IMG/VR virus record: IMGVR_UViG_3300021255_003438
Coordinates: 1 to 13,507 of that record
Reading direction: 5' to 3' (one strand)
Source: a virus
Taxonomy: Duplodnaviria > Heunggongvirae > Uroviricota > Caudoviricetes
DNA: 13,507 bases
Position 1 is the first letter of the stretch; every line of letters starts with the position of its first letter. The notes under the pieces are model-generated. The model was not told where the DNA came from. It saw nothing but the letters and a program-made list of their open reading frames with translations, and made no database searches. Shown in pieces: positions 1,042-13,507 of this stretch. The position numbers were made by a program, and so were the translations under genes.

Positions 1042-1053
1042 AATATAACAAAT

Positions 1054-1077
1054 GGGATAGTTCAAATGAACTATCCC
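1054..1077. terminator. Bidirectional intrinsic terminator between convergent genes
   Basis: Perfect 10-bp stem GGGATAGTTC-AAAT-GAACTATCCC with T-rich tails on both strands. Confidence 0.85.
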
Positions 1078-1088
1078 TTCTTCATTTT

Positions 1089-1250
1089 TTATGCACCCTT
1101 AATTATTGGCCTAGCAATCTCTTGCCTTTTCTTACTTTTCTTGCCGTGTTTCTTCTCATACCATTTGAAGGTTTTATACATAACCTCAACGGCTGTAATT
1201 GTTGCGCTTGCCACAGTGACAAGTGTATTAACTTTTTTTAGCAATCCCAT
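1089..1250 (-). CDS. Small 53-aa protein, not in ORF track: MGLLKKVNTLVTVASATITAVEVMYKTFKWYEKKHGKKSKKRQEIARPIIKGA
   Basis: ATG at 1250, TAA at 1091-1089; fills the gap between the upstream gene (23-nt overlap) and the terminator; apolar helix followed by a basic tail. Confidence 0.7.
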   Translation of the reverse strand: MGLLKKVNTLVTVASATITAVEVMYKTFKWYEKKHGKKSKKRQEIARPIIKGA

Positions 1251-1533
1251 ATTTTCCCTTATTTAATTTATATACGTTGTTAACTGCCCCTATGAAATCA
1301 TTCCATCCTTGCAGCTCTTGGCCATTAACCTTTATACCCAAGACAATCTTCTTTGAAACAATGTCCTTTGAATTCAGTCTTGTGGTCAAGACCTTAAATG
1401 TAACGTGATGGTATGGCACACTTATGTAAGTGTATTCAATCCTACCATTCTCACGCTTCGCTGTGAATCCAAAGAACTTGTTTCTTTCAAGAATTTTACT
1501 TACTGCATCGAAATGTATTAATCCTTTACTCAT
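1228..1533 (-). CDS. Hypothetical protein (101 aa)
   Basis: ATG directly follows the upstream TAA (TAAATG); same strand as the cluster. Confidence 0.7.
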   Translation of the reverse strand: MSKGLIHFDAVSKILERNKFFGFTAKRENGRIEYTYISVPYHHVTFKVLTTRLNSKDIVSKKIVLGIKVNGQELQGWNDFIGAVNNVYKLNKGKYGIAKKS

Positions 1534-1890
1534 TTAGGTACTTTTTCTAATAATATAGTCAGGCACTTTTTCTAATAATATAGTCATTGCATATTGACTC
1601 GTTTGGCTAATGTCAACGTCTCCATTAGGCTTCTTAACCTCTAAGGGTTTTAGTAAAGCTCTGATGGACTCAAACAATGAAGATGGATAACCTTTAAGCA
1701 TCATCTTACAAATGACGTTATCCTCAACGATAGGGGCTTCTTCTAGGGGTTCTTGTGGCATACCGTCAGCCGCAATTTCAAGTAGTCTCTCCCTAAACGC
1801 TTGTGTGAGGCTTATTTTGTTAAGCTCTTCTTTAAGTTTTTTTAGAGTTTCATCCTTTTTGGACGGTGCTATTACTTTTGTTGTTGTCAT
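1534..1890 (-). CDS. Hypothetical protein (118 aa); C-terminus remodelled by the 25-bp duplication
   Basis: ATGA overlap with the YqeY gene stop at 1887-1890. Confidence 0.75.
   Translation of the reverse strand: MTTTKVIAPSKKDETLKKLKEELNKISLTQAFRERLLEIAADGMPQEPLEEAPIVEDNVICKMMLKGYPSSLFESIRALLKPLEVKKPNGDVDISQTSQYAMTILLEKVPDYIIRKST
1536..1585. repeat. 25-bp tandem duplication (2 copies, 24/25 identical)
   Basis: aggtactttttctaataatatagtc (1536-1560) followed by aggcactttttctaataatatagtc (1561-1585). Confidence 0.95.
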
Positions 1891-2438
1891 TTCATAAATG
1901 GAGTTAATGCGGTTTTAACGATGTTACCGTTTACATTAGGATACTTAGCTTTAACCTTTGGCATAATCTGGCCCATATCTCTCATAGAAACAACATAGTC
2001 AGCTGGTTTCTCAGCCAAGAACTCCTTAATGACTTCCTTAGTGTAGTCCACAATCTCTTCCTCTGTAGGCTGCTTTGGTGTGAACTCGTTGATAACCTTA
2101 AGCTCTGCTTCCTCATGGTCGTACAAATCGTTCCTACCCACTTTTTTGTACTCATCCATTGATTCCTCATGCTTTGACTTGAGACGAAGCATTACCTTTA
2201 CCTCACCATCCTTTGAAATGACGTATGAAGCGTTGTTGTTTTCCCTTATAAGTTCAGCCTTAATGACCTTTAGAGCGCCAAGCCTCTCTTTAAGGTTAGC
2301 CTCCTCAACAAGTTCTTCTAGAGTTTTATCCTCATTCTTAATTTTTGAATATGGGATAAGCTCTTCCATTGTCTTATTCATTGCGGTGTCAATCTCTTTA
2401 AGAATTGACATTTCATATTCTTTTGTATTTGTATTCAT
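1887..2438 (-). CDS. yqeY: GatB/YqeY domain protein (alternative start 2411)
   Basis: Family-like segments ERLGALKVIKAEL, KxHEESMDEYKKVGRNDLYDHEEAELKVINEFTPKQPTEEEI and SMRDMGQIMPKV. Confidence 0.8.
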   Translation of the reverse strand: MNTNTKEYEMSILKEIDTAMNKTMEELIPYSKIKNEDKTLEELVEEANLKERLGALKVIKAELIRENNNASYVISKDGEVKVMLRLKSKHEESMDEYKKVGRNDLYDHEEAELKVINEFTPKQPTEEEIVDYTKEVIKEFLAEKPADYVVSMRDMGQIMPKVKAKYPNVNGNIVKTALTPFMK

Positions 2439-2441
2439 AGT

Positions 2442-3500
2442 TTATTCTTCTTTTTTTGATTCTTCGTTTATTTTCAAAATCATAGCCACTGTCATTTGTA
2501 CAAGTGACTCTAAATCTCTGTAATCACACACCTCAACTTGTGTGTGCATATTCCTGTTAGGAATGGAAAGAAGCAATGTGTCACAATCTGTTGAAGAGTG
2601 CTTAATATACACTGTATCTGTGCCTCCACTCTGTACGCAGAACTCTTGATAAGGAATATGGTTGTCTTTGCAGCACTGTTTTGCCATATCAGTCATTCTA
2701 CGGTTACTGTCTGGTCCATAGGCAATTGCTCCACCCCTTCCAAGCTTAATATCACCCCATTCATTAGGGCTAACATATTCATCGTCAGTAGCAAATGTCA
2801 CATCATAGTCGATAGAATAGTGTGGGTCAATCTTTACAGCAGCGCCTACAGCGCCACTAGCTGATGTTTCTTCTTGTGTACATGCCACGCCATACACCTT
2901 TACATTTTGGAGGTCATATCTCATAAGCCTCTTCATGGTTTCAAGCATAACCATAACGCCCACTTTGTCATCAAGACCTCTTCCACAGAAACGATTCTGT
3001 CCAAGGTCAAGAGGAATATCACATATAACCACAGGGTCTCCAATACTTACCCTTGCAGCAGCTTCCTCCTTCGATTCAGCACCAATATCGATTTTCATAT
3101 CCTTAATCTTGATTGCCTTATCCTTTTCTTCTCCACCGTTGCGATATTCGATATGAATTGGAGTTTTACCAATAACGCCATTGATAATGTCATTCTTTGT
3201 TATAATAGCAACAGTAGAACCAAGAAGAACCTTTTTATCTATGCCGCCATCTGCGATAAAATGAATAAATCCCTTATCATCAATGTTTTGGACTTGCAAA
3301 CCAATCTCGTCAATATGCCCTGAAAGCATAATTCGCACATCACCGTTTCCCCAAGAATATGCAATGTTTCCAACCTCATCTGTAAACTCATGGTTAGCCC
3401 CATTCAGAAACTCTCCGATAAGGTTTTCTGAAAACTCTCTTTCATATCCGCTTGGTGTTGGTGCGGAAAGCAATCTTTTAAGAAAATTTTTGTCTATCAT
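2442..3500 (-). CDS. M42 family metallo-aminopeptidase (TET-like)
   Basis: PTPSGYE, GHIDEIG, GGID, GRGLDDKVG, QEET, IDYDVT, GGTDT, SIPNRNMHT; dimetal ligands H/D/E/D/H appear intact. Confidence 0.9.
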   Translation of the reverse strand: MIDKNFLKRLLSAPTPSGYEREFSENLIGEFLNGANHEFTDEVGNIAYSWGNGDVRIMLSGHIDEIGLQVQNIDDKGFIHFIADGGIDKKVLLGSTVAIITKNDIINGVIGKTPIHIEYRNGGEEKDKAIKIKDMKIDIGAESKEEAAARVSIGDPVVICDIPLDLGQNRFCGRGLDDKVGVMVMLETMKRLMRYDLQNVKVYGVACTQEETSASGAVGAAVKIDPHYSIDYDVTFATDDEYVSPNEWGDIKLGRGGAIAYGPDSNRRMTDMAKQCCKDNHIPYQEFCVQSGGTDTVYIKHSSTDCDTLLLSIPNRNMHTQVEVCDYRDLESLVQMTVAMILKINEESKKEE

Positions 3501-3582
3501 ACTGTTGTTATATATTTGAATGTATTTTGAAAATATTTTTTTCTAATTTAGAATCCATCTGTTTTCTGGTATGCAGTCATTT

Positions 3583-4407
3583 TTATCTATCGAAAACATC
3601 TTTGAAAGGTTTCAAATTACCTTGTGGGTTGTGTGTACCATTGGTTGAAGGAACGTCAATTATGGCAAAATGAATCACCTTAAATGCTCCCTTATACCTC
3701 TTTGATTCAAGAACATCGTGGAACAGTTTTGCCATCTGTTCTGGAGGTGTACAATATGCCCCACAACCGAATGCACTCAGCACAAGAGAGTCATGTCCGT
3801 TCTCTAACGTAATGTCAAATATCTGTCTGATTTTATTCTTGATGGCATCAACAGCCCAAGGAACAATCTTGCCATTGTCAAGAGGTGGTTTTTTGACCGC
3901 AGGAACGCTTACAACGCTCACGGTGAATACATTGTCCAATCTCTTATAATTAACGTCCTCACCGCCTCTAAAAACGGTCACAGAGGGCGTATAGATGCCT
4001 CCAAAGTTATACTCCAAAGGATAACGCTCTTCTCTCTGCTTCACGCCATAGTTCAAACCTATTGGATGGAACTGATAGAGTGATTTGAAGAGGTCTGTCC
4101 TGCGGAATAGGTTTTCCTCTTGTGCTCCAGAGCCACGAGTAACGCCGCCACCAGGAGTTGAGAACGAAGCCATATTCAACACGCAAGGGTTTAAATCAGC
4201 TTGAATCATTTTCTCAGCTTCATATAAACAGTCATTGTTGACCACTTTTATCTCAGTCTCATAACGTGGGATATTATCATAGTCAACTAATGCTTTCTTA
4301 CCGTAGAACTTAGTTCCCTCTACCATAGCGGTTTCAGTTGTGAATGGGTTGTGCCTCACGATGTCTACAGTCTCCTTGTATATTTCTATTCTCTCTTCTT
4401 TATTCAT
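3583..4407 (-). CDS. TIGR02452 family protein, bacterial-type PARG macrodomain (ADP-ribose glycohydrolase-like)
   Basis: LNMAS...PGGGVTRGSGAQEE (GGG-x6-QEE catalytic signature) and VLSAFGCGAY. ATG at 4407 preferred over TTG at 4413. Confidence 0.88.
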   Translation of the reverse strand: MNKEERIEIYKETVDIVRHNPFTTETAMVEGTKFYGKKALVDYDNIPRYETEIKVVNNDCLYEAEKMIQADLNPCVLNMASFSTPGGGVTRGSGAQEENLFRRTDLFKSLYQFHPIGLNYGVKQREERYPLEYNFGGIYTPSVTVFRGGEDVNYKRLDNVFTVSVVSVPAVKKPPLDNGKIVPWAVDAIKNKIRQIFDITLENGHDSLVLSAFGCGAYCTPPEQMAKLFHDVLESKRYKGAFKVIHFAIIDVPSTNGTHNPQGNLKPFKDVFDR

Positions 4408-4576
4408 GTTCAAGCCTGAATTTATAGTCTAGAATCATTGATTCATTTTTAGTTATCTGCTGACGGTATTCGGCAGCTTTTTCTTTTGTTTTGCTTTTCC
4501 CAATTCGTTCTAACAGAGCAATGTTAGCCTTTTCCAATTGCTTGATTGCTTCAAGTAATACACTTTTTTTTGCCAT
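4400..4576 (-). CDS. Small 58-aa helical protein, not in ORF track: MAKKSVLLEAIKQLEKANIALLERIGKSKTKEKAAEYRQQITKNESMILDYKFRLEHE
   Basis: ATG 25 nt downstream of a consensus promoter; 3' end overlaps the PARG ATG by 8 nt. Confidence 0.8.
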   Translation of the reverse strand: MAKKSVLLEAIKQLEKANIALLERIGKSKTKEKAAEYRQQITKNESMILDYKFRLEHE

Positions 4577-4601
4577 ATTCTTTAAATTAAAGTCATTTTT
4601 G

Positions 4602-4633
4602 CAAATATATGAAAAAAATTCGTAATACCCAAA
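4602..4633 (-). promoter_or_regulatory. Bacteroidota housekeeping-sigma promoter
   Basis: TTTG (4633-4630)-N20-TATATTTG (4609-4602). Confidence 0.8.
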
Positions 4634-4654
4634 ATTTTTGATAGATATTACGAA
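4612..4654 (-). terminator. Intrinsic terminator overlapping the next promoter
   Basis: TTCGTAATA...TATTACGAA stem (4654-4646 / 4627-4619), extendable with G-U pairs, followed by a T tract on the minus strand. Confidence 0.75.
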
Positions 4655-4661
4655 CTTTTAA

Positions 4662-5018
4662 CTAAAAATTTTCAAGTTGTTTGTTCAGCAAATCAAATTT
4701 GCTGTCAATTTCAACTAGTTCTTCATTTATGTTTGGCAGTTGATGCTCTATAACGTCTTTCATATTTGCCACAGCAGACAAAAGCGTTTGGTTTTCCTTA
4801 AACAACTGTGTGTTGTCTTCCAACAGCTTTTTGACATCTATTTGTTCATTTCTTCTTTGTCCATTTTTGTGTGAAGAATTCCAAGCTTTGACATTATCCA
4901 ATTCTTGTTTTAGGATATATCCTATTTCAAGTAAAAGTTGTCTGTCGCTCCTTGTAGACGTTGTACTAAGCCGTGCCAAATTTTCTATGCACTTGTTCAA
5001 ATCTTCTTCGTTTATCAT
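4662..5018 (-). CDS. Hypothetical protein with C-terminal coiled coil (118 aa)
   Basis: Heptad-like C-half (LLEDNTQLFKENQTLLSAVANMKD); TAG stop followed by a terminator. Confidence 0.75.
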   Translation of the reverse strand: MINEEDLNKCIENLARLSTTSTRSDRQLLLEIGYILKQELDNVKAWNSSHKNGQRRNEQIDVKKLLEDNTQLFKENQTLLSAVANMKDVIEHQLPNINEELVEIDSKFDLLNKQLENF

Positions 5019-5023
5019 ATTGA

Positions 5024-5191
5024 CTAGTTTTTATACACTCCACTCTTAATTAGTCTTTCCCTTTCCAATATGAAATAACTCATCTGTTCAGAGGTTATGC
5101 CACTAATCCATTACATACAATAGTGTTTATACCGACTTGGTATTCTGTCGGTAAAACGCCATATAAGATATTCCTCCAAATATTTTTCCAT
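5024..5191 (-). pseudogene. Small gene with one in-frame TAA: MEKYLEEYLIWRFTDRIPSRYKHYCM*WISGITSEQMSYFILERERLIKSGVYKN*
   Basis: ATG 2 nt after the upstream stop; final TAG 5 nt before the next ATG; 56-codon frame with a single TAA at codon 27 (5113-5111). Confidence 0.7.
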
Positions 5192-5193
5192 AG

Positions 5194-5769
5194 TCAATCC
5201 CAATACTCTTCGTAAGCACCATGTGCGCAGTAACCATTATGGCCACTACCATAGCCATTGTTATAGCCTCCGTTATAGGAATATGTGTTCTTTGATATTA
5301 CGAAATCCTTAAGAAGCTCTTTGTGCTCTTCACACATAGGTTTAATTACATCACCGTTATATTCTAGTTTTGGTATAATAATTTTATGTACAACTTCTCC
5401 TGTTTCAACATCTACTAGTGCCAAGAGGTCTTGATTCCATATATATCCGTATTCTAAGAGTTTTTCAATGGCATCTTGCTTTTCGGCCTCAGTACATATT
5501 TTCCAAAAATAGTCTTCTTCGTAAGTGTCTAAAGTTTTTTCACAAGGTTTGCCATTCTTTGCGACTTCTAGCACTGGACGAGAACTCCAACCAATACCGT
5601 TTTCGTTTTCACAGTATTTGCTAGGGTCATAAAATGCCGCGACTGAAAGTTTCTTTGTATACTGATAGGATGGCATCAAGTCAACTCCTTCAAATATGGC
5701 AAATGAGCTTGGCTTATTCTCATATTTAAGGAAATCACCCTTTTCAAATTTTCTTTTAATTAGCTCCAT
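5194..5769 (-). CDS. Hypothetical protein (191 aa) with G/Y/N-rich C-terminal tail
   Basis: Long ORF overlapping the nadD end by 14 nt; tail YSYNGGYNNGYGSGHNGY. Confidence 0.8.
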   Translation of the reverse strand: MELIKRKFEKGDFLKYENKPSSFAIFEGVDLMPSYQYTKKLSVAAFYDPSKYCENENGIGWSSRPVLEVAKNGKPCEKTLDTYEEDYFWKICTEAEKQDAIEKLLEYGYIWNQDLLALVDVETGEVVHKIIIPKLEYNGDVIKPMCEEHKELLKDFVISKNTYSYNGGYNNGYGSGHNGYCAHGAYEEYWD

Positions 5770-6385
5770 CTTTGTATAAGTTGTTTTTATTTATAATCTC
5801 TAACACTTCTTCGTTCACATAAGGGATAGGATTCATATGCCTACCTATCATATTTCTTACCATCGTTGATGAGGCATCCATACGTTGAGTCTTGATGCTC
5901 CAAAACTCCTTGTCAGTAAGACTATGCCTAGAGACAAGATGCTCTTTAAACGGAATTTTATTGCTGTCCATTTCAGTTCCGTCATTCCTCTTAACTTCAA
6001 TGTATGACAGCTTGTTCCTTATATGTGAATCAAAGTTTTTCCACTGAGGAATCCTTTCTATCGTGTCAGTTCCACCTATAAGGTATAGTTCATCGTTGGG
6101 ATATGCCTCACGAATCTTCTCTATAACCTTATAAGAGTACGTAGGGGGTTCAATGTCTTTTTCCAAGTCACATACCTCACACCTACCGTTAAAGCCGCTT
6201 ACAGAGGCTTTTATCATGGCACAGCGCAATTCCATAGGGGCTGGTTCATAACTTTTCCAAGGGTTGTGTTTTGCCACAACGAATAGCACCTTGTCGCACA
6301 GCCCACTGTTCAGCACACATGCGGCAATGTTTACATGACCAATATGTATTGGGTCAAATGAACCAAGGAGCAATCCTACTTTCAT
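5756..6385 (-). CDS. nadD: Nicotinate/nicotinamide-mononucleotide adenylyltransferase, NadD family
   Basis: GSFDPIHIGH (HxGH), NPWK, LIGGTD, W, SSTMVR, C-terminal NNLY. ATG at 6385 gives the usual N-terminus. Confidence 0.88.
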   Translation of the reverse strand: MKVGLLLGSFDPIHIGHVNIAACVLNSGLCDKVLFVVAKHNPWKSYEPAPMELRCAMIKASVSGFNGRCEVCDLEKDIEPPTYSYKVIEKIREAYPNDELYLIGGTDTIERIPQWKNFDSHIRNKLSYIEVKRNDGTEMDSNKIPFKEHLVSRHSLTDKEFWSIKTQRMDASSTMVRNMIGRHMNPIPYVNEEVLEIINKNNLYKDGAN

Positions 6386-6665
6386 AATGTTTTTTTGTTT
6401 TAATGCTATAAAATTCTTCTCCCAATGTACTACCAATACAGAAAATCAAAAACAAAGGCCACGCCATAACTCCAAGTTTAACTAACTCATATTCGTGTTT
6501 GCTGATATAATTATATACTTCTATTGAAACCACGTCTTCGTCATTGTATTTCCTAATCCTTTGCCTTATGTTTTTCGTCATCAATATTCCAACAAGGAAA
6601 TATACTACAAAAAATATAAAAAGTGGAACACCATAGACCAACACAATATATAATACTGTTTTCAT
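6354..6665 (-). CDS. Small membrane protein, two predicted TM segments
   Basis: Hydrophobic VLYIVLVYGVPLFIFFVVYFLVGIL and LGVMAWPLFLIFCIG; ATG 6665 lies 6 nt after a promoter -7 box. Confidence 0.7.
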   Translation of the reverse strand: MKTVLYIVLVYGVPLFIFFVVYFLVGILMTKNIRQRIRKYNDEDVVSIEVYNYISKHEYELVKLGVMAWPLFLIFCIGSTLGEEFYSIKTKKHYESRIAPWFI

Positions 6666-6671
6666 TTTTTG

Positions 6672-6703
6672 CAAATGTATGGAAAAAAAATTAAATAGCC
6701 AAA
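6672..6703 (-). promoter_or_regulatory. Bacteroidota housekeeping-sigma promoter
   Basis: TTTG (6703-6700)-N20-TACATTTG (6679-6672). Confidence 0.78.
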
Positions 6704-6717
6704 ATATTTTTGTTTTT

Positions 6718-7086
6718 TTAACCAAAAAATTCTTTTTGGTCTTCTACCCACACTGAATGGACTAAATTTGTTTGTATTTTATCCAAAGGTGACTTTAGTG
6801 ATTCGTTGACATAGGAGTTGATTATGTCCAAGACTTCCTTATCACTGCTATACGGCCCAATCCAAACATGCTCTGACCATTCACAGTGATGAACGTATAA
6901 TTTCCCATTTTTGGCTTTTCTAGAAACGAAAGCAGTTCTTTCAATGGGCTTGCGATACCAAGGGAGCTTTTTTATTTTTTCCTCTAACGATTCACTCTTA
7001 ACTGATTTGTGCTTTTTCGCAACAAAAGATGCTATGTCATTCATAATTTTAACAATAATGGCTAGCTTTTCAACATTGCTAGCCAT
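6718..7086 (-). CDS. Hypothetical protein (122 aa)
   Basis: ORF in the minus-strand cluster with an A-rich upstream region. Confidence 0.75.
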   Translation of the reverse strand: MASNVEKLAIIVKIMNDIASFVAKKHKSVKSESLEEKIKKLPWYRKPIERTAFVSRKAKNGKLYVHHCEWSEHVWIGPYSSDKEVLDIINSYVNESLKSPLDKIQTNLVHSVWVEDQKEFFG

Positions 7087-7103
7087 TTTATTGTGTTTAG
7101 TCG

Positions 7104-7442
7104 TTAGTCTTTTTCTACTAGCTTTAACAAATTCTCAGCGTATTCCTCAAGAATCAACGGATAATACATTGTGTAGAACTCACGGATTTCTTCGATTGTA
7201 TAATCCTTTTTCATCTGTCTGAAAATGCACTTGGCTTCCAAAATGATAACCTTTTGAACGTGCATGTCAGGAACTTTGCCCTCACACCAATCTTCTGCCA
7301 TCTTATTGAAGATACTTACATATCCCAAGAACTCGGCAAAGATAATGAATAAAGGAGCATCTACGATGATAATTCCGTTTTCACCGTTTGAATACTTCGT
7401 CTTAATTTCGACTTTTGTCTCTGTTTTTGTTTCTGTACTCAT
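7104..7442 (-). CDS. Hypothetical protein (112 aa)
   Basis: ORF in the minus-strand cluster with short spacers. Confidence 0.75.
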   Translation of the reverse strand: MSTETKTETKVEIKTKYSNGENGIIIVDAPLFIIFAEFLGYVSIFNKMAEDWCEGKVPDMHVQKVIILEAKCIFRQMKKDYTIEEIREFYTMYYPLILEEYAENLLKLVEKD

Positions 7443-7461
7443 ATGAAAAAATGTTATTTAG

Positions 7462-7677
7462 TTACCAACTGTCAATGTCTGTTATGTCTTTCTTCTTTCC
7501 ACAATACGGACATATTATTTCAATGGCAGTACCAATTCCTAACGGTGTCAGCACATATTTAAATGGTGCATATTGAGGAATGGTGTCATTATTTTTATTG
7601 GGTCTGCACCTTTTATGCCATTTTTTGAAAGATTCAGCTTTTTTTTCTTCGACCTCATTTAACTCAAATTTTATCAT
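7462..7677 (-). CDS. Small phage-type protein with Zn-ribbon-like CPYC (71 aa)
   Basis: LTPLGIGTAIEIICPYCGKKKDITDIDSW resembles a common phage hypothetical motif (recognised from memory); ATG 7677 is in an ATGA overlap. Confidence 0.75.
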   Translation of the reverse strand: MIKFELNEVEEKKAESFKKWHKRCRPNKNNDTIPQYAPFKYVLTPLGIGTAIEIICPYCGKKKDITDIDSW

Positions 7678-7799
7678 AAATAATAACACTCTGGATGCAA
7701 GGATTCTGTTTCAATCCCATTATTTTCCTTGGCCTCATTTACGCTATTGGTCACAATTGTGGATGCCGTGAAAAACACATCAGTTTGATTTTGATTCAT
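7674..7799 (-). CDS. Small 41-aa protein, not in ORF track: MNQNQTDVFFTASTIVTNSVNEAKENNGIETESLHPECYYL
   Basis: Fills an otherwise empty gap; TGA overlaps the next ATG (ATGA); 20-nt overlap with the upstream gene. Confidence 0.55.
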   Translation of the reverse strand: MNQNQTDVFFTASTIVTNSVNEAKENNGIETESLHPECYYL

Positions 7800-8229
7800 T
7801 TGATACTATTGTTTTAGATACACTTATTTTAAAATTTCGTTTACACTTTGGTAATATCTGCTTATACTCTTGTCCATAAGTATTGGGCGTAGTTACGTAG
7901 CTTTGCGCATATGGAGTATAAGTTTGTTTGTCATACGACCAATTGTTCTGTTTGGGTGTATAGCTATTTCTTGCTGGAGCAATTCTCCTATGGTGTTTAG
8001 TTTCGTAACCATAATCCGTGTACTCTGGAGAAAGCCATGATATTTCATCAGGGTCTATTCCATGTCTCCTCAGAAACTCCTTATCATTTTCATCAAAGAA
8101 TGAAAATAATCCCCAAATTAAAATGATTATAGGAAAAAAGATGTAAACGTAACTAGAATATACAATCATGTGAAATATACCAATGATTGCAGTCAACATC
8201 ATCATTCCTCTGAAACTATTATATAGCAT
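7780..8229 (-). CDS. Membrane-anchored hypothetical protein with Tyr-rich polar C-half
   Basis: N-terminal hydrophobic stretch (MMMLTAIIGIFHMIVYSSYVYIFFPIIILIWGLFSFF); first gene after a promoter. Confidence 0.75.
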   Translation of the reverse strand: MLYNSFRGMMMLTAIIGIFHMIVYSSYVYIFFPIIILIWGLFSFFDENDKEFLRRHGIDPDEISWLSPEYTDYGYETKHHRRIAPARNSYTPKQNNWSYDKQTYTPYAQSYVTTPNTYGQEYKQILPKCKRNFKISVSKTIVSNESKSN

Positions 8230-8245
8230 ATTTTATCTTTTTGCG

Positions 8246-8276
8246 CAAAGATACGACTTTTTTTCCAATTATCGAA
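8246..8276 (-). promoter_or_regulatory. Bacteroidota housekeeping-sigma promoter
   Basis: TTCG (8276-8273)-N19-TATCTTTG (8253-8246); -33 box has one mismatch. Confidence 0.7.
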
Positions 8277-8296
8277 ACTTTACGCATTAAAAAAGG

Positions 8297-8554
8297 TTAA
8301 AATTTTTTCTTTTTAACAAGAAACCTAGCAAAAACACTCGTGTTATACATAGTTCTTTCCTTCTGTTCAGCGTCACCGATTCTTTTGTATGTGGCTTTGT
8401 CTCCTTCTTTTGTGAGGATTAACAAATCCCTACGTTCCAAAGTAATGATTGGTGGAACATGGTACACGGTGTTCGGAAGGATTTCAGACCAAGGAACTAC
8501 GCTTTTAAGTTTTTGAAGCTGCGGTTTTAATTCTTGAAGTGAACGTTTAGCCAT
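8297..8554 (-). CDS. Hypothetical protein (85 aa), paralogous to the C-terminal domain of the upstream gene
   Basis: Shared pattern W-x2-I-x4-VY-x2-P-x-I-x4-R-x4-I-x2-K. Confidence 0.8.
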   Translation of the reverse strand: MAKRSLQELKPQLQKLKSVVPWSEILPNTVYHVPPIITLERRDLLILTKEGDKATYKRIGDAEQKERTMYNTSVFARFLVKKKKF

Positions 8555-8559
8555 AATAT

Positions 8560-9390
8560 TTAGTATTTATGTATGTTAGTAATAAAAACCATTTCAATGT
8601 CACTAGGATAGACGGAAGTGCAGTATTTTGACTCTTCGCCAAACTCGTTTATTTCTGAACACTTTAATATGCTGTCTGTTTTCATAACAATCCTAACCAC
8701 TTTCCTAGCTTGAGTCAATATCTTAGGTATCACATATACATCACCTTCCTTAATGTCATCCCAAGAAAGATGTGGTGGCATTTTCTTAAGTCTCTCCTTT
8801 TTTTCGTAGTAAGTTAAATGCTTTGTCTGTGTTGTTGGTGTTGGGCTATAGTTGTACTCATCATCGTCTTCATCAGATGGATGGTTATTAACTTGAGTTG
8901 TGGTAGGAGTCAAACGTTTTGTTATTTCGTTTTCATCTGCCATAGTAGAATCACTAGCAACTGGCTTAAGCACTTGTTTATTAATTCCACGCTTTTTAGG
9001 ACACCAATCTGGAGTATCAATCTGTAGCATCTGTCCAGTCTTGTATTTAATAACTCTCGGCTTGTTGTAGTCACCATAATCAATAATTACTCTACCACAA
9101 CAAGCGTTAAACACAAGTCTGCCATCACCTATAAAATTTTTAATTAGGTCTTGACATTGATTGCATGTTTCTTTTGGCGTTATCATTTTTTTATCTTCTT
9201 TAAAATCTTTGTATTCACAATCCTCACATTGGTATCCTGTAAAACACTTTACAAGCTGCCCACATTGACTAGACATCGGTTTTGACTTCGGCTGTAAGTC
9301 ATCAATATCTACGTCAAAAATACAAGTGGTGCATTGGTCACATACCTTACCGCGACAAGGGTGTTCTTGGTTCTCAATTACATAAGCCAT
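8560..9390 (-). CDS. Cys-rich multidomain hypothetical protein (276 aa)
   Basis: 13 Cys in the N-terminal ~130 aa (CxxxxCxxCxxC; Cx5Cx5CxxC; CxxC...CC...PDWCP), a T/D-rich linker, then the duplicated domain. Confidence 0.8.
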   Translation of the reverse strand: MAYVIENQEHPCRGKVCDQCTTCIFDVDIDDLQPKSKPMSSQCGQLVKCFTGYQCEDCEYKDFKEDKKMITPKETCNQCQDLIKNFIGDGRLVFNACCGRVIIDYGDYNKPRVIKYKTGQMLQIDTPDWCPKKRGINKQVLKPVASDSTMADENEITKRLTPTTTQVNNHPSDEDDDEYNYSPTPTTQTKHLTYYEKKERLKKMPPHLSWDDIKEGDVYVIPKILTQARKVVRIVMKTDSILKCSEINEFGEESKYCTSVYPSDIEMVFITNIHKY

Positions 9391-9402
9391 ATTTATTTTA
9401 AA

Positions 9403-10149
9403 TTAGAATGGACTGTTATATTCATCTTCATCTTCATAATACAAAGGGTTAGGAATAGTGTGCATTTCTTCAAATGTCGGAGCACTTAACCACCCATCGT
9501 TTTCTTTTGGTGGCTCAAATATCAGCTTCTTTCTTTTAAGGAATTCAAAGAACTTCTTGTTTCTTCCCAATTCCTCTGGTCTGAATCCTCTACCCTCATC
9601 AGATGTTAAGAACTCCATCTGTGCTTGCATCATCTTTTTTTCATCATCAGGCAAATCCTCCTCTGTAGTATCAACGAACCCATCGCCAAACAATTGTTCG
9701 CAAGTTATGTCAAATGCCTCTTTTCCCATCTTGCCCAACAATGAGAAATCTAGAATACGACTTTCCACGCAATAATGCAACAAATTGTTTATGTGCTGCA
9801 AGACGCACATTTGAAGCTTTTTGGAGTCTTCTAAAGGTATGGTAATACCATTGTTATGACCAACCACCTCTAACATTTTGTTAAGCAGTTCCTTAAGGTT
9901 TTTTGTGCCGTTAAATGGGTTTGATTCCCCTTTACAGAAATATATCAGTCTTCGTATATCAGATTTTTCATCTACTGACGGAAGGGTTGCGAAAAACGGA
10001 TAGAATGCTGAATAGCGTATGGTTAAGTTACCATGTCCGTTACCCACGTTGGAACGGAATATATGATATACCTTATTTCTTTTCAACGTTCTAGTTAAGT
10101 TTTTATATATCATCAACACTAGGTCTGATTCGTTTACACTCTTTTTCAT
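9403..10149 (-). CDS. Hypothetical protein (248 aa), probably leaderless mRNA
   Basis: Long ORF; ATG 4 nt after the -7 box. Confidence 0.8.
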   Translation of the reverse strand: MKKSVNESDLVLMIYKNLTRTLKRNKVYHIFRSNVGNGHGNLTIRYSAFYPFFATLPSVDEKSDIRRLIYFCKGESNPFNGTKNLKELLNKMLEVVGHNNGITIPLEDSKKLQMCVLQHINNLLHYCVESRILDFSLLGKMGKEAFDITCEQLFGDGFVDTTEEDLPDDEKKMMQAQMEFLTSDEGRGFRPEELGRNKKFFEFLKRKKLIFEPPKENDGWLSAPTFEEMHTIPNPLYYEDEDEYNSPF

Positions 10150-10153
10150 AATG

Positions 10154-10184
10154 CAAATATATAGGTTTTTTAGTTAATTTCAAA
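10154..10184 (-). promoter_or_regulatory. Bacteroidota housekeeping-sigma promoter
   Basis: TTTG (10184-10181)-N19-TATATTTG (10161-10154). Confidence 0.8.
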
Positions 10185-10194
10185 ATACATAATG

Positions 10195-10380
10195 TTAATT
10201 AATCTTAAATGCTTCCATATCATCATAATTCTTGCATTGTGGACAATACAAGTATGGACGCATATTGTTCTTAGGAAGCGTTACCATTAACGTTTTCCAA
10301 GGTACAAACATGTGCCCACACTTCTTACAATGTAAGACATATTTCTGTTCTATTTTATCGAAATCTTCTATCGTCATCAT
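10195..10380 (-). CDS. Small Zn-ribbon protein (CKKC...CPQC)
   Basis: Two CxxC pairs; ATGA overlap with the phosphoesterase stop. Confidence 0.75.
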   Translation of the reverse strand: MMTIEDFDKIEQKYVLHCKKCGHMFVPWKTLMVTLPKNNMRPYLYCPQCKNYDDMEAFKIN

Positions 10381-11057
10381 ATTTCAAAATATTGTGGTTT
10401 AAATACCATTTTATAGTCTTCATCCAATAATGAGACATTATATACTTTGGTGTTTCCCAACATTTCTTCCTCTCGATTTGAGGTGTGTAAATGTCCATGC
10501 AAACAATACTTTGGCTGTGCCTTTTCTATGAACGTTGCAAGAGATTTATTTCCTATGTGCGAACCATCTGCCCACCAACAATCTTTCTGTAGAATGATGT
10601 CACTAACGCCATAAGGGGCATCGTGAGCCATAACTACATCAATGTGTTCTATCGCTTTAAGATGACGCTCATACTTCTCGTCTTGCTCTTCATAAGGAGG
10701 CATAAAAGCCCATCTTCCAAATGGCTTGCACATAGGAGTACCGTAAATGGTCTTACCATCATATTCATATGTTTCACAGTCCAAGTAAACTACTTTGTCT
10801 TGTCCTTGCAGCATAAGTCGAATTCTGTCTGGGTGACGCATAGCAAAGAAATCGTGATTCCCAGCCACAAACAGAACTTTCTGACAAGGCAATGCACTAC
10901 ACCAAGGTATGAATACCGTTTTGTACCACTCTTCACTTGGAGTTGTGTAGCCTTGTATGTGTAGAGGAATTAAATCCCCACATATCATAACAATGTCGCA
11001 TGGTTCAACTTTAAAATCTAAATTGCCATGCATATCAGAAAATGCACATATTTTCAT
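10377..11057 (-). CDS. Calcineurin-like metallophosphoesterase
   Basis: SDMHG, CGD, AGNHD, MAHDAPYG, HGHLH. ATG 11057 preferred because the longer ORF starts inside the terminator/promoter. Confidence 0.9.
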   Translation of the reverse strand: MKICAFSDMHGNLDFKVEPCDIVMICGDLIPLHIQGYTTPSEEWYKTVFIPWCSALPCQKVLFVAGNHDFFAMRHPDRIRLMLQGQDKVVYLDCETYEYDGKTIYGTPMCKPFGRWAFMPPYEEQDEKYERHLKAIEHIDVVMAHDAPYGVSDIILQKDCWWADGSHIGNKSLATFIEKAQPKYCLHGHLHTSNREEEMLGNTKVYNVSLLDEDYKMVFKPQYFEI

Positions 11058-11078
11058 AACTTCAATATTAACTTTTGG

Positions 11079-11110
11079 CAAAGATATATAAAATAATTGT
11101 AAAAACCAAA
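11079..11110 (-). promoter_or_regulatory. Bacteroidota housekeeping-sigma promoter
   Basis: TTTG (11110-11107)-N20-TATCTTTG (11086-11079). Confidence 0.8.
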
Positions 11111-11112
11111 TA

Positions 11113-11150
11113 AAATAAGGAGTAATCATAGTTATGACCACTCCTTACTT
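11113..11150 (-). terminator. Intrinsic terminator
   Basis: AAGTAAGGAGTGGTCAT-AACT-ATGATTACTCCTTATTT on the minus strand (G-U pairs work only on minus), then a T-rich run. Confidence 0.8.
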
Positions 11151-12093: not shown

Positions 12094-12519
12094 TTAATAA
12101 GAATACATATCATCAATTTGTTTTTGTCTTCCTCGTGTTTTAAAATCAGATTGGTTGGTATCACCTATTTTAACACGTTTCTTAAACACAAAATGATAAC
12201 AATTGCCTAAGTTACTACTTGCTGGATACGCATTCACAAGAGTCCACCCTTTTGATGCAAGGTAATTGCAAGCATCAATCATTGAGTTGAATTTGATTTT
12301 TTTACCATCTTCATCAACCATTTTTGTTTCCCTAACTGACCAAATAGATGTTTTTTGACCAAAATCTATGTCAATTGATACTTTGTTTGACATAAACTGC
12401 CCAGTACCAACAATCATACAATAGATTTCTTGCGTGGAATCGTTTTCTTCAACAGTTTGGCCAAATAAATTCAATGTAGTACAAACTGTAAACGCTAAGA
12501 GTAAAAGCAATTTTTTCAT
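12094..12519 (-). CDS. Secreted Bacteroidota-type conserved hypothetical protein
   Basis: Sec-type signal MKKLLLLLAFTVCTTLNLFGQ; core YCMIVG...IDFGQ...FNSMIDACNYLASKGWTLVNAY...YHFVFKK resembles a Bacteroidota family (from memory). Start 12519 preferred to 12603. Confidence 0.75.
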   Translation of the reverse strand: MKKLLLLLAFTVCTTLNLFGQTVEENDSTQEIYCMIVGTGQFMSNKVSIDIDFGQKTSIWSVRETKMVDEDGKKIKFNSMIDACNYLASKGWTLVNAYPASSNLGNCYHFVFKKRVKIGDTNQSDFKTRGRQKQIDDMYSY

Positions 12520-12566
12520 TTTAAATTTGTTTTTTATTGTTTGTTGTTTTGTATTCTCTTGAAAAT

Positions 12567-12652
12567 GATGAAGTTCGGTGGTTTGTACCCACACTGACAG
12601 CAACTTCTTTACTACTTGCTCGGTCTAACGTTTAACCTCTACGTCCTTCATC
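12567..12652 (-). ncRNA. Candidate 86-nt cloverleaf-like structured RNA (5' leader or small RNA), family unassigned
   Basis: 7-bp closing stem GAUGAAG/CUUCAUC plus three hairpins; 5' end 5 nt downstream of the -7 box. Confidence 0.5.
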
Positions 12653-12656
12653 GTTG

Positions 12657-12687
12657 CAAATATACGAAAAAAAATTGGAATAACAAA
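12657..12687 (-). promoter_or_regulatory. Bacteroidota housekeeping-sigma promoter
   Basis: TTTG (12687-12684)-N19-TATATTTG (12664-12657). Confidence 0.8.
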
Positions 12688-12704
12688 ATGAAATTCCAAT
12701 TTTT
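12666..12704 (-). terminator. Intrinsic terminator overlapping the promoter
   Basis: AAAAATTGGAAT...ATTCCAATTTTT inverted repeat with a longer T run on the minus strand. Confidence 0.75.
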
Positions 12705-12718
12705 AACAGTAATTAAGA

Positions 12719-12835
12719 GACCCCTAGTGGTAACGCTCCACTCCACCTTTCGGCCATTAGTTTTGCAGACTACGACAATAACTTCTCTGTCAAGGGGTCA
12801 TAGAAGCCTAGTCTATTTTCACAAACCAACTAGGC
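12719..12835 (-). ncRNA. Candidate structured ncRNA: 5' hairpin plus five-way junction, family unassigned
   Basis: P1 GACCCCU/AGGGGUC encloses four hairpins; GAAA, GCAA and GUGA (GNRA) loops and G-U pairs favour the minus strand; region is GC-richer than its flanks. Confidence 0.62.
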
Positions 12836-12860
12836 AGTAGATAAAAATAGAAATAAAATC

Positions 12861-13507
12861 TTAATTTTCATCAGGTTCTCTACGGACAAATCGTCCGTTT
12901 GGTGCGCGATGCAGCTTCGTCTTTTCCACGTTCTGCTGAATCTTGCGCATAAGTTTACTAGAAATGTGAGTTATAGGCTCTTCGGCAGCTTTCTCTTCTG
13001 CCTCAGTATTCGTTTCGGCCTTTTTCGCAGGCTTTTTTCTCACCACTTTTTTAGGTTTTTCAGTTGGTGTTGCCTCTTCCTCGGCTGTGTCAATCAGAAC
13101 CACCTTCGGAATAGTAATTGTAGCCGTTTTCAAAGCTTCGTTGGTCTTGAGAGAAATCTTCTCCAAGTCACAGTTGCTAGGAATCACTACAACAGTTTTG
13201 TTACTTCTAGAACTAGTCTCGTCCTCATAAGTCACTTCCACCTTCAACTTATTGTCCTCAACTTCATAAGAGAGCTTTTCACCAATCCTTTCGTCAAAAG
13301 GAACTGTCACCGAAAAATCGGTAAGACTGTCTTTAACGTGCTTCATAAGTTCGTTAAAGTCATTCAAGAGTTCGTTGCTTTTACTGAGTAAAGCATCCCT
13401 ACGTTCCTTGAGGTAGTCAATCTGAGCACCCCAATCAAAAGAATTTACGACTTCGTTGAAATTCTCTACCAAGCTCTTGGCTTGATTCGCCCCATTGTCA
13501 ATAAGAC
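12861..13507 (-). CDS. HSP20/alpha-crystallin-like domain protein with K/E/A-rich tail (5'-truncated by window edge)
   Basis: Frame is open to the window end (...LIDNGANQAKSLVENF...). Core DFSVTVPF...LSYEVEDNKLKVEV...VVIPSNCDLEKISLK...ATITIPK follows the ACD beta-strand pattern. Confidence 0.6.
   Translation of the reverse strand, partial: LIDNGANQAKSLVENFNEVVNSFDWGAQIDYLKERRDALLSKSNELLNDFNELMKHVKDSLTDFSVTVPFDERIGEKLSYEVEDNKLKVEVTYEDETSSRSNKTVVVIPSNCDLEKISLKTNEALKTATITIPKVVLIDTAEEEATPTEKPKKVVRKKPAKKAETNTEAEEKAAEEPITHISSKLMRKIQQNVEKTKLHRAPNGRFVRREPDEN

What the first reader, a model, noticed from the sequence alone, without database searches (positions are those of the whole stretch)
12719..12835. 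Unassigned five-way-junction RNA downstream of the HSP20-like gene
Seen on the minus strand: a 5' hairpin (12835-12806; GCCUAGU/ACUAGGC, can close on a GUGA loop), then P1 GACCCCU/AGGGGUC (12799-12793 / 12725-12719). P1 encloses P2 UGACAG/UUGUCG, P3 UAGU/ACUA (GCAA loop), P4 GCC-GAAA-GGU and P5 AGUGG/CCACU, with junction linkers of only 0-3 nt. The P2 and P5 loops look alike (AGAAGUUA and AGCGUUA), which could be repeated protein-binding sites. Loop AGAAG can also pair with the CUUCU linker (12806-12802) as a pseudoknot. I could not match it by eye to hammerhead, twister, twister-sister, pistol, HDV-like, c-di-GMP, lysine, fluoride or RNase P cores. It sits between a stop codon and a terminator, so it is inferred to be a 3'-UTR element or processed sRNA of a phage.
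Basis: partly seen in the sequence, partly recalled or inferred. Interest (0 to 1): 0.78.

Follow-up and report, generated by a model that had tools for sequence, protein, structure and literature searches.

The report
Odd phage cysteine tRNA gene
The "five-way-junction RNA" is a phage transfer RNA gene for cysteine, built on the long-arm body normally reserved for serine, leucine and tyrosine tRNAs, with a matched rewrite of the two loops that form the tRNA corner, which is why standard tRNA finders miss it.

Summary
It has anticodon loop CUGCAAA (GCA, Cys) and discriminator U73, and it encodes no CCA. ARAGORN at default settings and Rfam miss it. This is because the T-loop is AGCGUUA (not UUCRANY) and the D-loop is AGAAGUUA (no G18G19).

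A sister phage with a 98% identical flanking gene has a canonical class-II tRNA-Cys at the same site (Rfam 51.9 bits). A covariance model built only from canonical relatives finds the window copy at 46.4 bits (E about 3e-12).

Against its nearest relative (L280), all 16 differences are two-sided swaps at 8 stem positions, and no unpaired position differs.

The same T-loop recurs on Cys, Tyr, Met, Gly and Asn anticodons inside tRNA arrays of other phages. G55 co-varies with loss of the D-loop GG (p about 7e-28).

Most likely it is a working Cys tRNA, co-transcribed with the upstream gene and cut out by RNase P. Which amino acid it carries is inferred, not shown.

This scan has noted both oddities before on other DNA. 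Four literature searches and four papers read found no published description of either.

The parts
12718..12799 (-). tRNA-Cys(GCA) gene, 82 nt to the discriminator, class-II body, no encoded CCA. Acceptor 12799-12793 / 12725-12719. U8 G9 12792-12791. D stem 12790-12787 / 12778-12775. Anticodon stem 12773-12769 / 12761-12757. Variable region 12756-12743 (3-bp stem GCC/GGU with a GAAA loop). T stem 12742-12738 / 12730-12726. Discriminator U73 at 12718.
   Evidence: ARAGORN at 80% threshold calls tRNA-Cys(gca). Model R2, built without it, scores 46.4 bits, E 3.1e-12.
12762..12768 (-). Anticodon loop CUGCAAA: U33, anticodon GCA at 12766-12764, A37.
   Evidence: Read directly. It is invariant in all 21 aligned class-II tRNA-Cys.
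12731..12737 (-). Non-canonical T-loop AGCGUUA (A54 G55 C56 G57 U58 U59 A60), closed by G53-C61.
   Evidence: The identical loop is in L280, L036, L286 and L032, and on four other anticodons.
12779..12786 (-). D-loop AGAAGUUA. A14, G15 and A21 are kept. G18G19 is replaced by A-G.
   Evidence: G55 co-varies with absence of GG in the D-loop across 881 tRNA calls.
12800..12805 (-). 6-nt 5' leader UUCUAU between the hairpin and the tRNA. Inferred to be removed by RNase P.
   Evidence: Sequence. The leader is not conserved in L009 or L280. Processing is inferred.
12806..12835 (-). Conserved hairpin: outer stem GCCUAGU/ACUAGGC, apical GUGA tetraloop. Inferred to be a 3'-end protector or attenuator of the upstream mRNA.
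   Evidence: It is identical in L009. In L280 the outer stem and GUGA loop are kept, with one U-A to C-G swap in the inner stem. It is unique in the genome. The function is inferred.
12657..12716 (-). Terminator-like hairpin (12697-12677) plus T run, overlapping a Bacteroidota-type promoter (TTTG 12687-12684; TATATTTG 12664-12657). It ends the tRNA's transcription unit and starts the next one.
   Evidence: 12 places in the 104.7-kb record match this stretch, including the query's own site; several lie directly upstream of tRNA genes.
12861..13507 (-). 3' part of the upstream 224-aa gene (it runs to 13535, beyond the window). No promoter was seen between it and the tRNA, so co-transcription is inferred.
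   Evidence: No promoter motif lies between its stop codon and the tRNA. There is no HSP20 hit in Pfam, NCBIfam or PDB sequences.

Best explanation
It is a phage-encoded tRNA gene that reads cysteine codons (UGU/UGC). The gene has no promoter of its own. It is transcribed as the tail of the upstream gene's mRNA, past a conserved hairpin. The tRNA is then released by RNase P at G1 (12799) and by 3' trimming after U73 (12718). CCA is added afterwards, since it is not encoded and the phage carries a CCA-adding-family enzyme. The hairpin is left as the protected 3' end of the mRNA. The tRNA has two departures from textbook bacterial tRNA-Cys. First, it has a serine-tRNA-like class-II body with a short extra arm. 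Second, it has a compensated alternative elbow: A54/U58 replace T54/A58 and A18/G55 replace G18/Psi55, while G19-C56 and G53-C61 are kept. With GCA and U73 it is most likely charged by the host CysRS. It supplies the one amino acid missing from the 31 tRNAs found in the held 35% of this phage. Shown here: the fold, homology to bona fide tRNA-Cys, selection on stems and loops, and recurrence of the loop pair. Inferred: co-transcription and processing, CCA addition, charging with Cys, and use on the ribosome.
For: The cloverleaf has 7/4/5/5-bp stems, a 7-nt anticodon loop with U33 and A37, U8, A14, G15, A21, G53-C61 and U73. At the same site, sister phage L009 (flanking protein 98% identical, hairpin identical) has a class-II tRNA-Cys(GCA) that ARAGORN calls at default and Rfam scores at 51.9 bits. 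Model R2, built from 18 canonical relatives only, gives a single hit in the window: 46.4 bits, E 3.1e-12. Window versus L280 shows 16 differences, all in stems. They fall at 8 two-sided positions: 7 swap one standard pair for another, and one is the 27:43 mismatch, unpaired in both. Of 45 unpaired columns, 0 differ. Window versus L009 shows 13 two-sided swaps and 0 one-sided. On 21 sequences, 94.6% of cells pair and 19 of 21 pairs change on both sides. U73 is present in 63 of 66 distinct class-II GCA tRNAs, against G73 in 51 of 72 tRNA-Ser calls from the same loci. The AGCGUUA T-loop recurs with different stems in L280, L036, L286 and L032. In the last three it lies inside same-strand tRNA arrays, and two of them encode U73-CCA. 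It also occurs on Tyr, Met, Gly and Asn anticodons. Among the distinct tRNA calls with a 7-nt T-loop, G55 without GG occurs 26 times and G55 with GG once. U55 with GG occurs 751 times and U55 without GG 52 times. Fisher p = 6.7e-28. No other Cys tRNA is in the 104.7-kb record. A PF01743 CCA-adding-family gene lies at genome 24391-24804.
Against: It fails Rfam tRNA even at E <= 10 and ARAGORN at default. It lacks the near-universal T54, Psi55 and G18, so folding, EF-Tu and ribosome use are unproven. It has A2-U71, not the G2-C71 listed among bacterial Cys determinants (PMC9976931). It carries several SerRS determinants (long arm, C11-G24, G30-C40, C72). It sits alone, 28 kb from the phage's tRNA island. 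The record is only about 35% complete, so 'the only tRNA-Cys' is provisional. No CysRS is encoded in the held part, so charging depends on the host enzyme accepting this body.
Confidence: 0.78

Rival explanations
1. It is a working tRNA that is charged with serine, not cysteine. The body is serine-tRNA-like, and SerRS reads the long arm rather than the anticodon. It would then insert Ser at UGU/UGC codons, either as deliberate mistranslation or as an intermediate that is converted on the tRNA.
For: The class-II tRNA-Cys consensus matches serine tRNAs closely. R2's best hit in L036 is a tRNA-Ser(CGA) at 52.2 bits. The long arm, C11-G24, G30-C40 and C72 are bacterial Ser determinants (PMC9976931). 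Mukai et al. regard a long arm with G73 or U73 as compatible with SerRS (PMC5389517).
Against: U73 is kept in 63 of 66 GCA class-II tRNAs, while tRNA-Ser in the same loci mostly has G73. That is the expected signature of selection for CysRS. The window has A2-U71 and C4-G69, not G2-C71 and R4-Y69. The extra arm is short (3 bp; median variable region 15 nt against 18 nt in tRNA-Ser). Proteome-wide Cys-to-Ser replacement would also damage phage proteins.
Confidence: 0.1
2. It is a tRNA look-alike that is not used for decoding. It could be a decoy or sponge for a host tRNA-cutting or tRNA-modifying defence enzyme. It could also be a processing 'punctuation mark' whose cleavage by RNase P sets the 3' end of the upstream mRNA.
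For: It stands alone at the end of a protein gene, outside the tRNA island. It lacks the elbow residues read by TrmA, TruB and TrmH. The same genome carries other tRNA-shaped RNAs (earlier notes e1-1839886 and e1-1839889, unchecked here). A second cloverleaf-like RNA lies 66 nt downstream.
Against: The anticodon loop, U73 and all loops are perfectly conserved against L280. The same loop pair occurs on at least five anticodons inside ordinary tRNA arrays, some with encoded CCA. A canonical tRNA-Cys occupies the same slot in the sister phage, which argues that the slot supplies a decoder.
Confidence: 0.1
3. It is a decaying pseudo-tRNA: a former tRNA-Cys that lost its T- and D-loop consensus by drift.
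For: It fails both standard detectors. A sister phage has the canonical form.
Against: Drift does not produce 8 two-sided stem swaps with no unpaired change. Drift also does not produce the same 7-nt T-loop in unrelated phages on five anticodons, nor a G55/no-GG association at p about 7e-28.
Confidence: 0.02

Closest known systems
Canonical bacterial and phage elongator tRNA (Rfam RF00005), in particular tRNA-Cys(GCA)
   Same: It shares the cloverleaf with a 7/5 acceptor/T branch and a 7-nt anticodon loop with U33, GCA and A37. It also shares U73, U8, A14, G15, A21, C56 and G53-C61. It lies at a site where a sister phage has an Rfam-positive tRNA-Cys.
   Different: It has a long variable arm, whereas bacterial tRNA-Cys is class I (established knowledge). 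It has T-loop AGCGUUA and no G18. It has A2-U71. It scores below any reportable Rfam value.
Bacterial class-II tRNA-Ser
   Same: It shares the D arm, the anticodon stem (G30-C40), C11-G24 and an extra stem-loop. The family consensus is nearly a tRNA-Ser body, and R2 scores a tRNA-Ser at 52.2 bits.
   Different: It has anticodon GCA, and U73 instead of G73. The extra arm is shorter. The window member has A2-U71 and C4-G69.
selC* tRNA-Cys and allo-tRNAs (Mukai et al. 2017, PMC5389517; Krahn et al. 2020, PMC7609411)
   Same: These are natural tRNAs that combine a long variable arm with a Cys anticodon and U73 (selC*), or with non-Ser anticodons (allo-tRNA). Some are found in phages.
   Different: Those have 8/4 or 9/3 acceptor/T branches and a Sec-like long D stem with a tetraloop. 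This one is 7/5 with a 4-bp D stem and an 8-nt loop. It is not next to selB/cysS-type genes.
tRNAs with non-canonical elbows: tRNA-Pyl and many animal mitochondrial tRNAs (PMC7609411)
   Same: They lack G18G19 and/or T-Psi-C yet function in translation.
   Different: Those have shrunken D-loops and other core changes. Here the loop sizes are normal. The change is a specific matched substitution (A18/G55, A54/U58) with G19-C56 retained.

Membership tests
tRNA (RF00005) | Cloverleaf with 7-bp acceptor, D arm, 5-bp anticodon stem, 5-bp T stem closed by G53-C61 | tested here: met
   On the family alignment 94.6% of cells pair.
tRNA (RF00005) | 7-nt anticodon loop with U33 and purine 37 | tested here: met
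   The loop is CUGCAAA, invariant in 21 of 21 relatives.
tRNA (RF00005) | Homology to accepted tRNA genes | tested here: met
   The syntenic L009 copy scores 51.9 bits on Rfam tRNA. Model R2 of canonical relatives gives 46.4 bits, E 3.1e-12.
tRNA (RF00005) | Rfam gathering score (29 bits) | tested here: not met
   No tRNA match even at E <= 10 on 401 nt. The AGCGUUA members in L280, L036, L286 and L032 are also absent from the gathering list.
tRNA (RF00005) | Canonical elbow residues G18 G19 / T54 Psi55 C56 A58. These are typical rather than strictly defining, since tRNA-Pyl and mitochondrial tRNAs lack them. | tested here: not met
   The D-loop is AGAAGUUA and the T-loop is AGCGUUA. Only G19 and C56 are retained.
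tRNA (RF00005) | Aminoacylation at a CCA 3' end and use on the ribosome | not testable with these tools
   CCA is not encoded. A CCA-adding-family gene is present in the phage.
tRNA-Cys identity (bacterial CysRS) | Discriminator U73 | tested here: met
   T at 12718. U73 is in 63 of 66 class-II GCA tRNAs.
tRNA-Cys identity (bacterial CysRS) | Anticodon G34 C35 A36 | tested here: met
   12766-12764.
tRNA-Cys identity (bacterial CysRS) | G2-C71 and C3-G70 (PMC9976931) | tested here: inconclusive
   C3-G70 is present. Position 2:71 is A-U. The determinants were defined in E. coli, not in Bacteroidota.
tRNA-Cys identity (bacterial CysRS) | G15:G48 tertiary pair (E. coli type) | tested here: inconclusive
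   G15 is present, and the last variable-region base before the T stem is G in the window, L280 and L036. It is C in most canonical-elbow relatives. The pairing itself cannot be tested.
selC* tRNA-Cys / allo-tRNA (Mukai 2017) | 8/4 or 9/3 acceptor/T-stem branch | tested here: not met
   The 7/5 branch is supported by covariation in both helices.
selC* tRNA-Cys / allo-tRNA (Mukai 2017) | Long variable arm with U73 and GCA | tested here: met
tRNA-Ser | G73, G2-C71, R4-Y69 | tested here: not met
   The window has U73, A2-U71 and C4-G69.
tRNA-Ser | Long variable arm, C11-G24, G30-C40 | tested here: met
   The arm is short (14-nt variable region).

The most novel reading that the evidence does not exclude
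The window RNA is a working member of a phage-borne class of tRNAs. In this class the near-universal corner contacts (T54-A58, G18-Psi55) are replaced by a co-evolved alternative (A54-U58, A18-G55), here on a serine-like long-arm body carrying Cys identity. Such tRNAs could not receive m5U54 or Psi55 (those uridines are absent) nor Gm18. They may therefore be blind to host enzymes or antiviral nucleases that read the elbow, giving the phage a private decoder set. This would be a natural second solution to the tRNA elbow.
Probability: 0.35. Interest if true: 0.8.

Novelty: new variant of a known kind. Interest (0 to 1): 0.58.

Why it matters
Three things follow if this holds.

First, standard annotation (ARAGORN at default, Rfam at gathering score) misses such genes. 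Phage tRNA repertoires, and any codon-supply arguments built on them, are therefore undercounted. Here the miss is the one amino acid absent from the tRNAs found in the held part of the genome.

Second, G18-Psi55 and T54-A58 are among the most conserved contacts in biology. A matched natural replacement on many anticodons is a direct handle on what the elbow must do for RNase P, EF-Tu, the ribosome and the modification enzymes.

Third, a Cys tRNA on a serine-type body tests how CysRS and SerRS partition substrates. It is also a candidate orthogonal scaffold for genetic code engineering.

Tried and rejected
- **Rfam.** The gathering-score search of the whole window gave nothing. The E <= 10 search on 12500-12900 gave only chance-level sRNA, miRNA and leader matches.
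- **ARAGORN at default.** No call.
- **blastn of the region against 50,697 phage records.** No match.
- **A new ribozyme or riboswitch-like five-way junction.** Rejected: every helix maps onto a tRNA arm and the sequence is homologous to tRNA-Cys.
- **Pseudoknot between the D-loop AGAAG and the leader CUUCU.** Rejected as a functional feature. The leader is not conserved, and L009, L036 and L286 have no counterpart. L280 could form a wobble version, which I take as coincidence.
- **P2 and P5 loops as repeated protein sites.** Rejected: they are the D- and T-loops.
- **Own promoter for the tRNA.** No TTTG/TAnnTTTG pair was found between the stop codon and the tRNA.
- **A wider scan for more long-arm Cys members with AGCRUWA-type T-loops.** No new members beyond L032, L036 and L040.
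- **HSP20 identity of the upstream protein.** There is no Pfam, NCBIfam or PDB-sequence support. A single-sequence AlphaFold model was too poor (pLDDT 60, about 50 in the beta region) to search with.
- **Phage-encoded CysRS.** None in the held record.

Full report
**What is in the sequence**

On the minus strand the upstream 224-aa gene stops at 12861. After a 25-nt AT-rich spacer comes a 30-nt hairpin (12835-12806) and a 6-nt linker. Then follows an 82-nt element (12799-12718) whose ends form the 7-bp helix GACCCCU/AGGGGUC around four hairpins. RNAfold reproduces all of this (-37.5 kcal/mol, z = -2.71).

Read as a tRNA, the element has:
- a 7-bp acceptor stem, then U8 G9;
- a 4-bp D stem with the 8-nt loop AGAAGUUA, then C26;
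- a 5-position anticodon stem with a 27:43 mismatch;
- the loop C-U-GCA-A-A;
- a 14-nt variable region with a 3-bp stem and GAAA loop;
- a 5-bp T stem closed by G-C, with loop AGCGUUA;
- U as discriminator, and no CCA.

ARAGORN calls nothing at default. At an 80% threshold it calls exactly this as tRNA-Cys(gca), 83 nt. Rfam gives nothing at the gathering score, and no tRNA match even at E <= 10 on a 401-nt slice.

**Genome context**

The window is the first 13.5 kb of a 104.7-kb IMG/VR phage record, estimated 35% complete. That record carries 31 ARAGORN tRNAs and a tmRNA, all on the minus strand between 40.8 and 74.1 kb. Between them they cover every amino acid except cysteine. A covariance model of long-arm Cys tRNAs finds no other GCA tRNA in the record.

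The stretch after the tRNA (12716-12640) matches 11 further places in the genome. It holds a Bacteroidota-type promoter (TTTG, about 19 nt, TATATTTG), which in several copies drives a tRNA directly. In the window copy, the part upstream of the -7 box can also fold into a weak hairpin followed by a T run. The tRNA is thus the last element of the upstream gene's transcription unit, and I found no promoter motif in front of it.

The phage encodes an RNA ligase two genes upstream. It also encodes a CCA-adding-family nucleotidyltransferase at 24391-24804. There is no CysRS in the held part.

**Homologues**

The flanking protein retrieved one close relative, L009 (98% identity). There the hairpin is identical. 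At the same distance downstream lies an 84-nt tRNA-Cys(GCA) with a long variable arm, D-loop AGUGGUCAA and T-loop UUCGAAU. ARAGORN calls it at default and Rfam scores it at 51.9 bits.

A pattern joining the anticodon loop to a canonical T-loop at long-arm spacing gave 81 matches among the loci read from IMG/VR. The same pattern gave 121 matches among the loci read from 185,579 cellular genomes. Only 9 are such tRNAs, most of them inside dense tRNA arrays.

A pattern requiring the window's own T-loop found further long-arm Cys tRNAs with AGCGUUA. These are L032/L040, L036 (IMG/VR), and L280 and L286 (metagenomes).

L280 lies on a 412-kb contig and shares the window's synteny. It has a gene end coding ...NGRFV..., a hairpin with the same outer stem and GUGA loop, the tRNA, and then a terminator/promoter.

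**Evidence of selection**

On 21 aligned long-arm Cys tRNAs, the cloverleaf pairs in 94.6% of cells, and 19 of 21 pairs change on both sides. Structures slid by 1-3 columns pair in 35-47%. Because the set was chosen with ARAGORN, this mainly shows that the window sequence fits the family.

The sharper test is pairwise:
- Window versus L280 differ at 16 positions. All are in stems, at 8 two-sided positions. Seven swap one standard pair for another; the eighth is the 27:43 mismatch, which is unpaired in both. None of the 45 unpaired columns differs.
- Window versus L009 show 13 two-sided swaps and none one-sided. They also show the coordinated loop differences.

A model built only from 18 canonical-elbow relatives (R2) finds one hit in the window. 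It is this element, at 46.4 bits, E about 3e-12. It is therefore a tRNA-Cys homologue under purifying selection for both fold and loops, and not a pseudogene.

**The elbow**

The loop G-AGCGUUA-C also occurs in the L036 and L286 arrays, on Tyr(GUA), Met(CAU), Gly(UCC) and Asn(GUU) anticodons. Close variants (AGCGUAA, AGCAUUA) occur on Val, Glu and Ile. Two of the Cys members encode U73-CCA. None of these passes the Rfam gathering score, although they sit in tRNA arrays.

I classified the distinct ARAGORN calls with a 7-nt T-loop (from 881 distinct calls) in the phage loci held:

| T-loop position 55 | D-loop without GG | D-loop with GG |
|---|---|---|
| G55 | 26 | 1 |
| U55 | 52 | 751 |

Fisher p = 6.7e-28. 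Loops of the form AUCGUWA keep U55 and keep GG. The 54/58 exchange and the 18/55 exchange are therefore separable, and each is matched.

My reading is that A18-G55 replaces G18-Psi55 and A54-U58 replaces T54-A58, with G19-C56 unchanged. This reading is inferred from covariation, not from a structure. The relaxed ARAGORN threshold admits some false calls, but that cannot create the association.

**Which amino acid**

According to Giege and Eriani (PMC9976931), bacterial Cys identity rests on U73, GCA, G2-C71, C3-G70 and tertiary features. The window has U73, GCA and C3-G70, but A2-U71.

U73 is present in 63 of 66 distinct long-arm GCA tRNAs. tRNA-Ser calls from the same loci have G73 in 51 of 72. 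That is what selection for CysRS recognition on a serine-like body would produce.

The body does carry Ser determinants: the long arm, C11-G24 and G30-C40. R2 scores a genuine tRNA-Ser at 52.2 bits. Serylation therefore cannot be excluded without an assay.

**Comparison with what is known**

The long-arm tRNA-Cys species in the papers I read are the selC* tRNAs of Mukai et al. (PMC5389517). Those have an 8/4 branch and a Sec-like D arm, as do the allo-tRNAs. The 7/5 branch here is supported by covariation, so it is not a member of either group.

The review of non-canonical tRNAs (PMC7609411) and the T-loop review (PMC7912444) mention neither G55/U58 T-loops nor long-arm phage tRNA-Cys. Four full-text searches found no description. 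The library is incomplete, so 'undescribed' is provisional.

Earlier notes of this scan report the same two features on other phage DNA. I reached the same reading from this window and tested it here.

**The hairpin**

It is unique in the genome, identical in L009, and conserved in L280 with one compensatory inner pair and the same GUGA loop. Its position just upstream of an RNase P site suggests two roles. It may protect the 3' end of the upstream mRNA after the tRNA is cut off, or it may attenuate read-through. This is inference only.

**Verdict**

The structure is real and conserved. It is a tRNA gene of a known kind with two unusual and recurrent variations.

Noticed in passing
window 12567-12652 (-): A second cloverleaf-shaped, 86-nt RNA starts 5 nt after the TATATTTG box. 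L009 (3584-3670) has it too, with three two-sided swaps in its T-like stem, although the protein gene that follows differs between the two phages. It has no usable 7-nt anticodon loop and no Rfam match. It is the subject of a separate note of this scan (e1-5413016).
   Followed up: partly
window 12640-12716 (-), with 11 further matches across the 104.7-kb record (e.g. 4593-4633 in the window): A repeated promoter unit reads GTTAAAA..TTTGG..CCAATTTTTTTTCRTATATTTGCAA. It drives both tRNA genes and protein genes, and in some copies it doubles as a terminator-like hairpin.
   Followed up: partly
L009:3340-3520: The sister phage has about 190 extra bases right after its canonical tRNA-Cys. They encode the C-terminal remnant of an HNH endonuclease (..LLCPNCHA..; Pfam HNH E 6.8e-4). 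Since L280 and the window share the AGCGUUA type at this site, the canonical tRNA in L009 may have arrived by endonuclease-linked cassette replacement. A nearly identical tRNA sits in a tRNA array of another 171-kb phage (L021).
   Followed up: partly
genome 56748-56837 and 52381-52462 (outside the window): The same phage has a 90-nt long-arm tRNA with a Trp anticodon (CCA). It also has an 82-nt long-arm tRNA with CAU whose T-loop is UGCAAAU and D-loop AGUAGUCAA. That is G55 with no GG again, but with U54/A58 kept.
   Followed up: no
window versus L280 (L280:1971-2053): All 16 differences between the two tRNAs fall in stems as two-sided swaps, with none in any loop or linker. So many double changes without any single change or loop change is more than simple purifying selection predicts. 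It may mean pressure to diversify stem sequence, or recombination between stem modules.
   Followed up: no
A single-sequence model shows a long helical hairpin, then about six strands at low confidence, then a Lys/Glu-rich tail. The label is unverified.
   Followed up: partly
genome 13717-14359 (just beyond the window) and 24391-24804: An RNA ligase gene (Pfam RNA_ligase; PHROG 548) lies two genes upstream of the tRNA. A CCA-adding-family nucleotidyltransferase lies further on. Together they form a tRNA repair and maturation toolkit.
   Followed up: no
window 151-11141: Other genes in the window are a BspA-type leucine-rich-repeat protein, a YqeY-like protein, an M42 aminopeptidase, a microbial PARG, a cytidylyltransferase-like (NMNAT-type) protein and a metallophosphoesterase.
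   Followed up: no
L186, L271, L243 and other genome-contig loci: Long-arm tRNA-Cys genes in cellular assemblies sit in dense tRNA arrays (up to 27 tRNAs in 8 kb). In L186 and L161 an ordinary short tRNA-Cys lies beside them. One array is in a cultured Chryseobacterium hagamense assembly.
   Followed up: no
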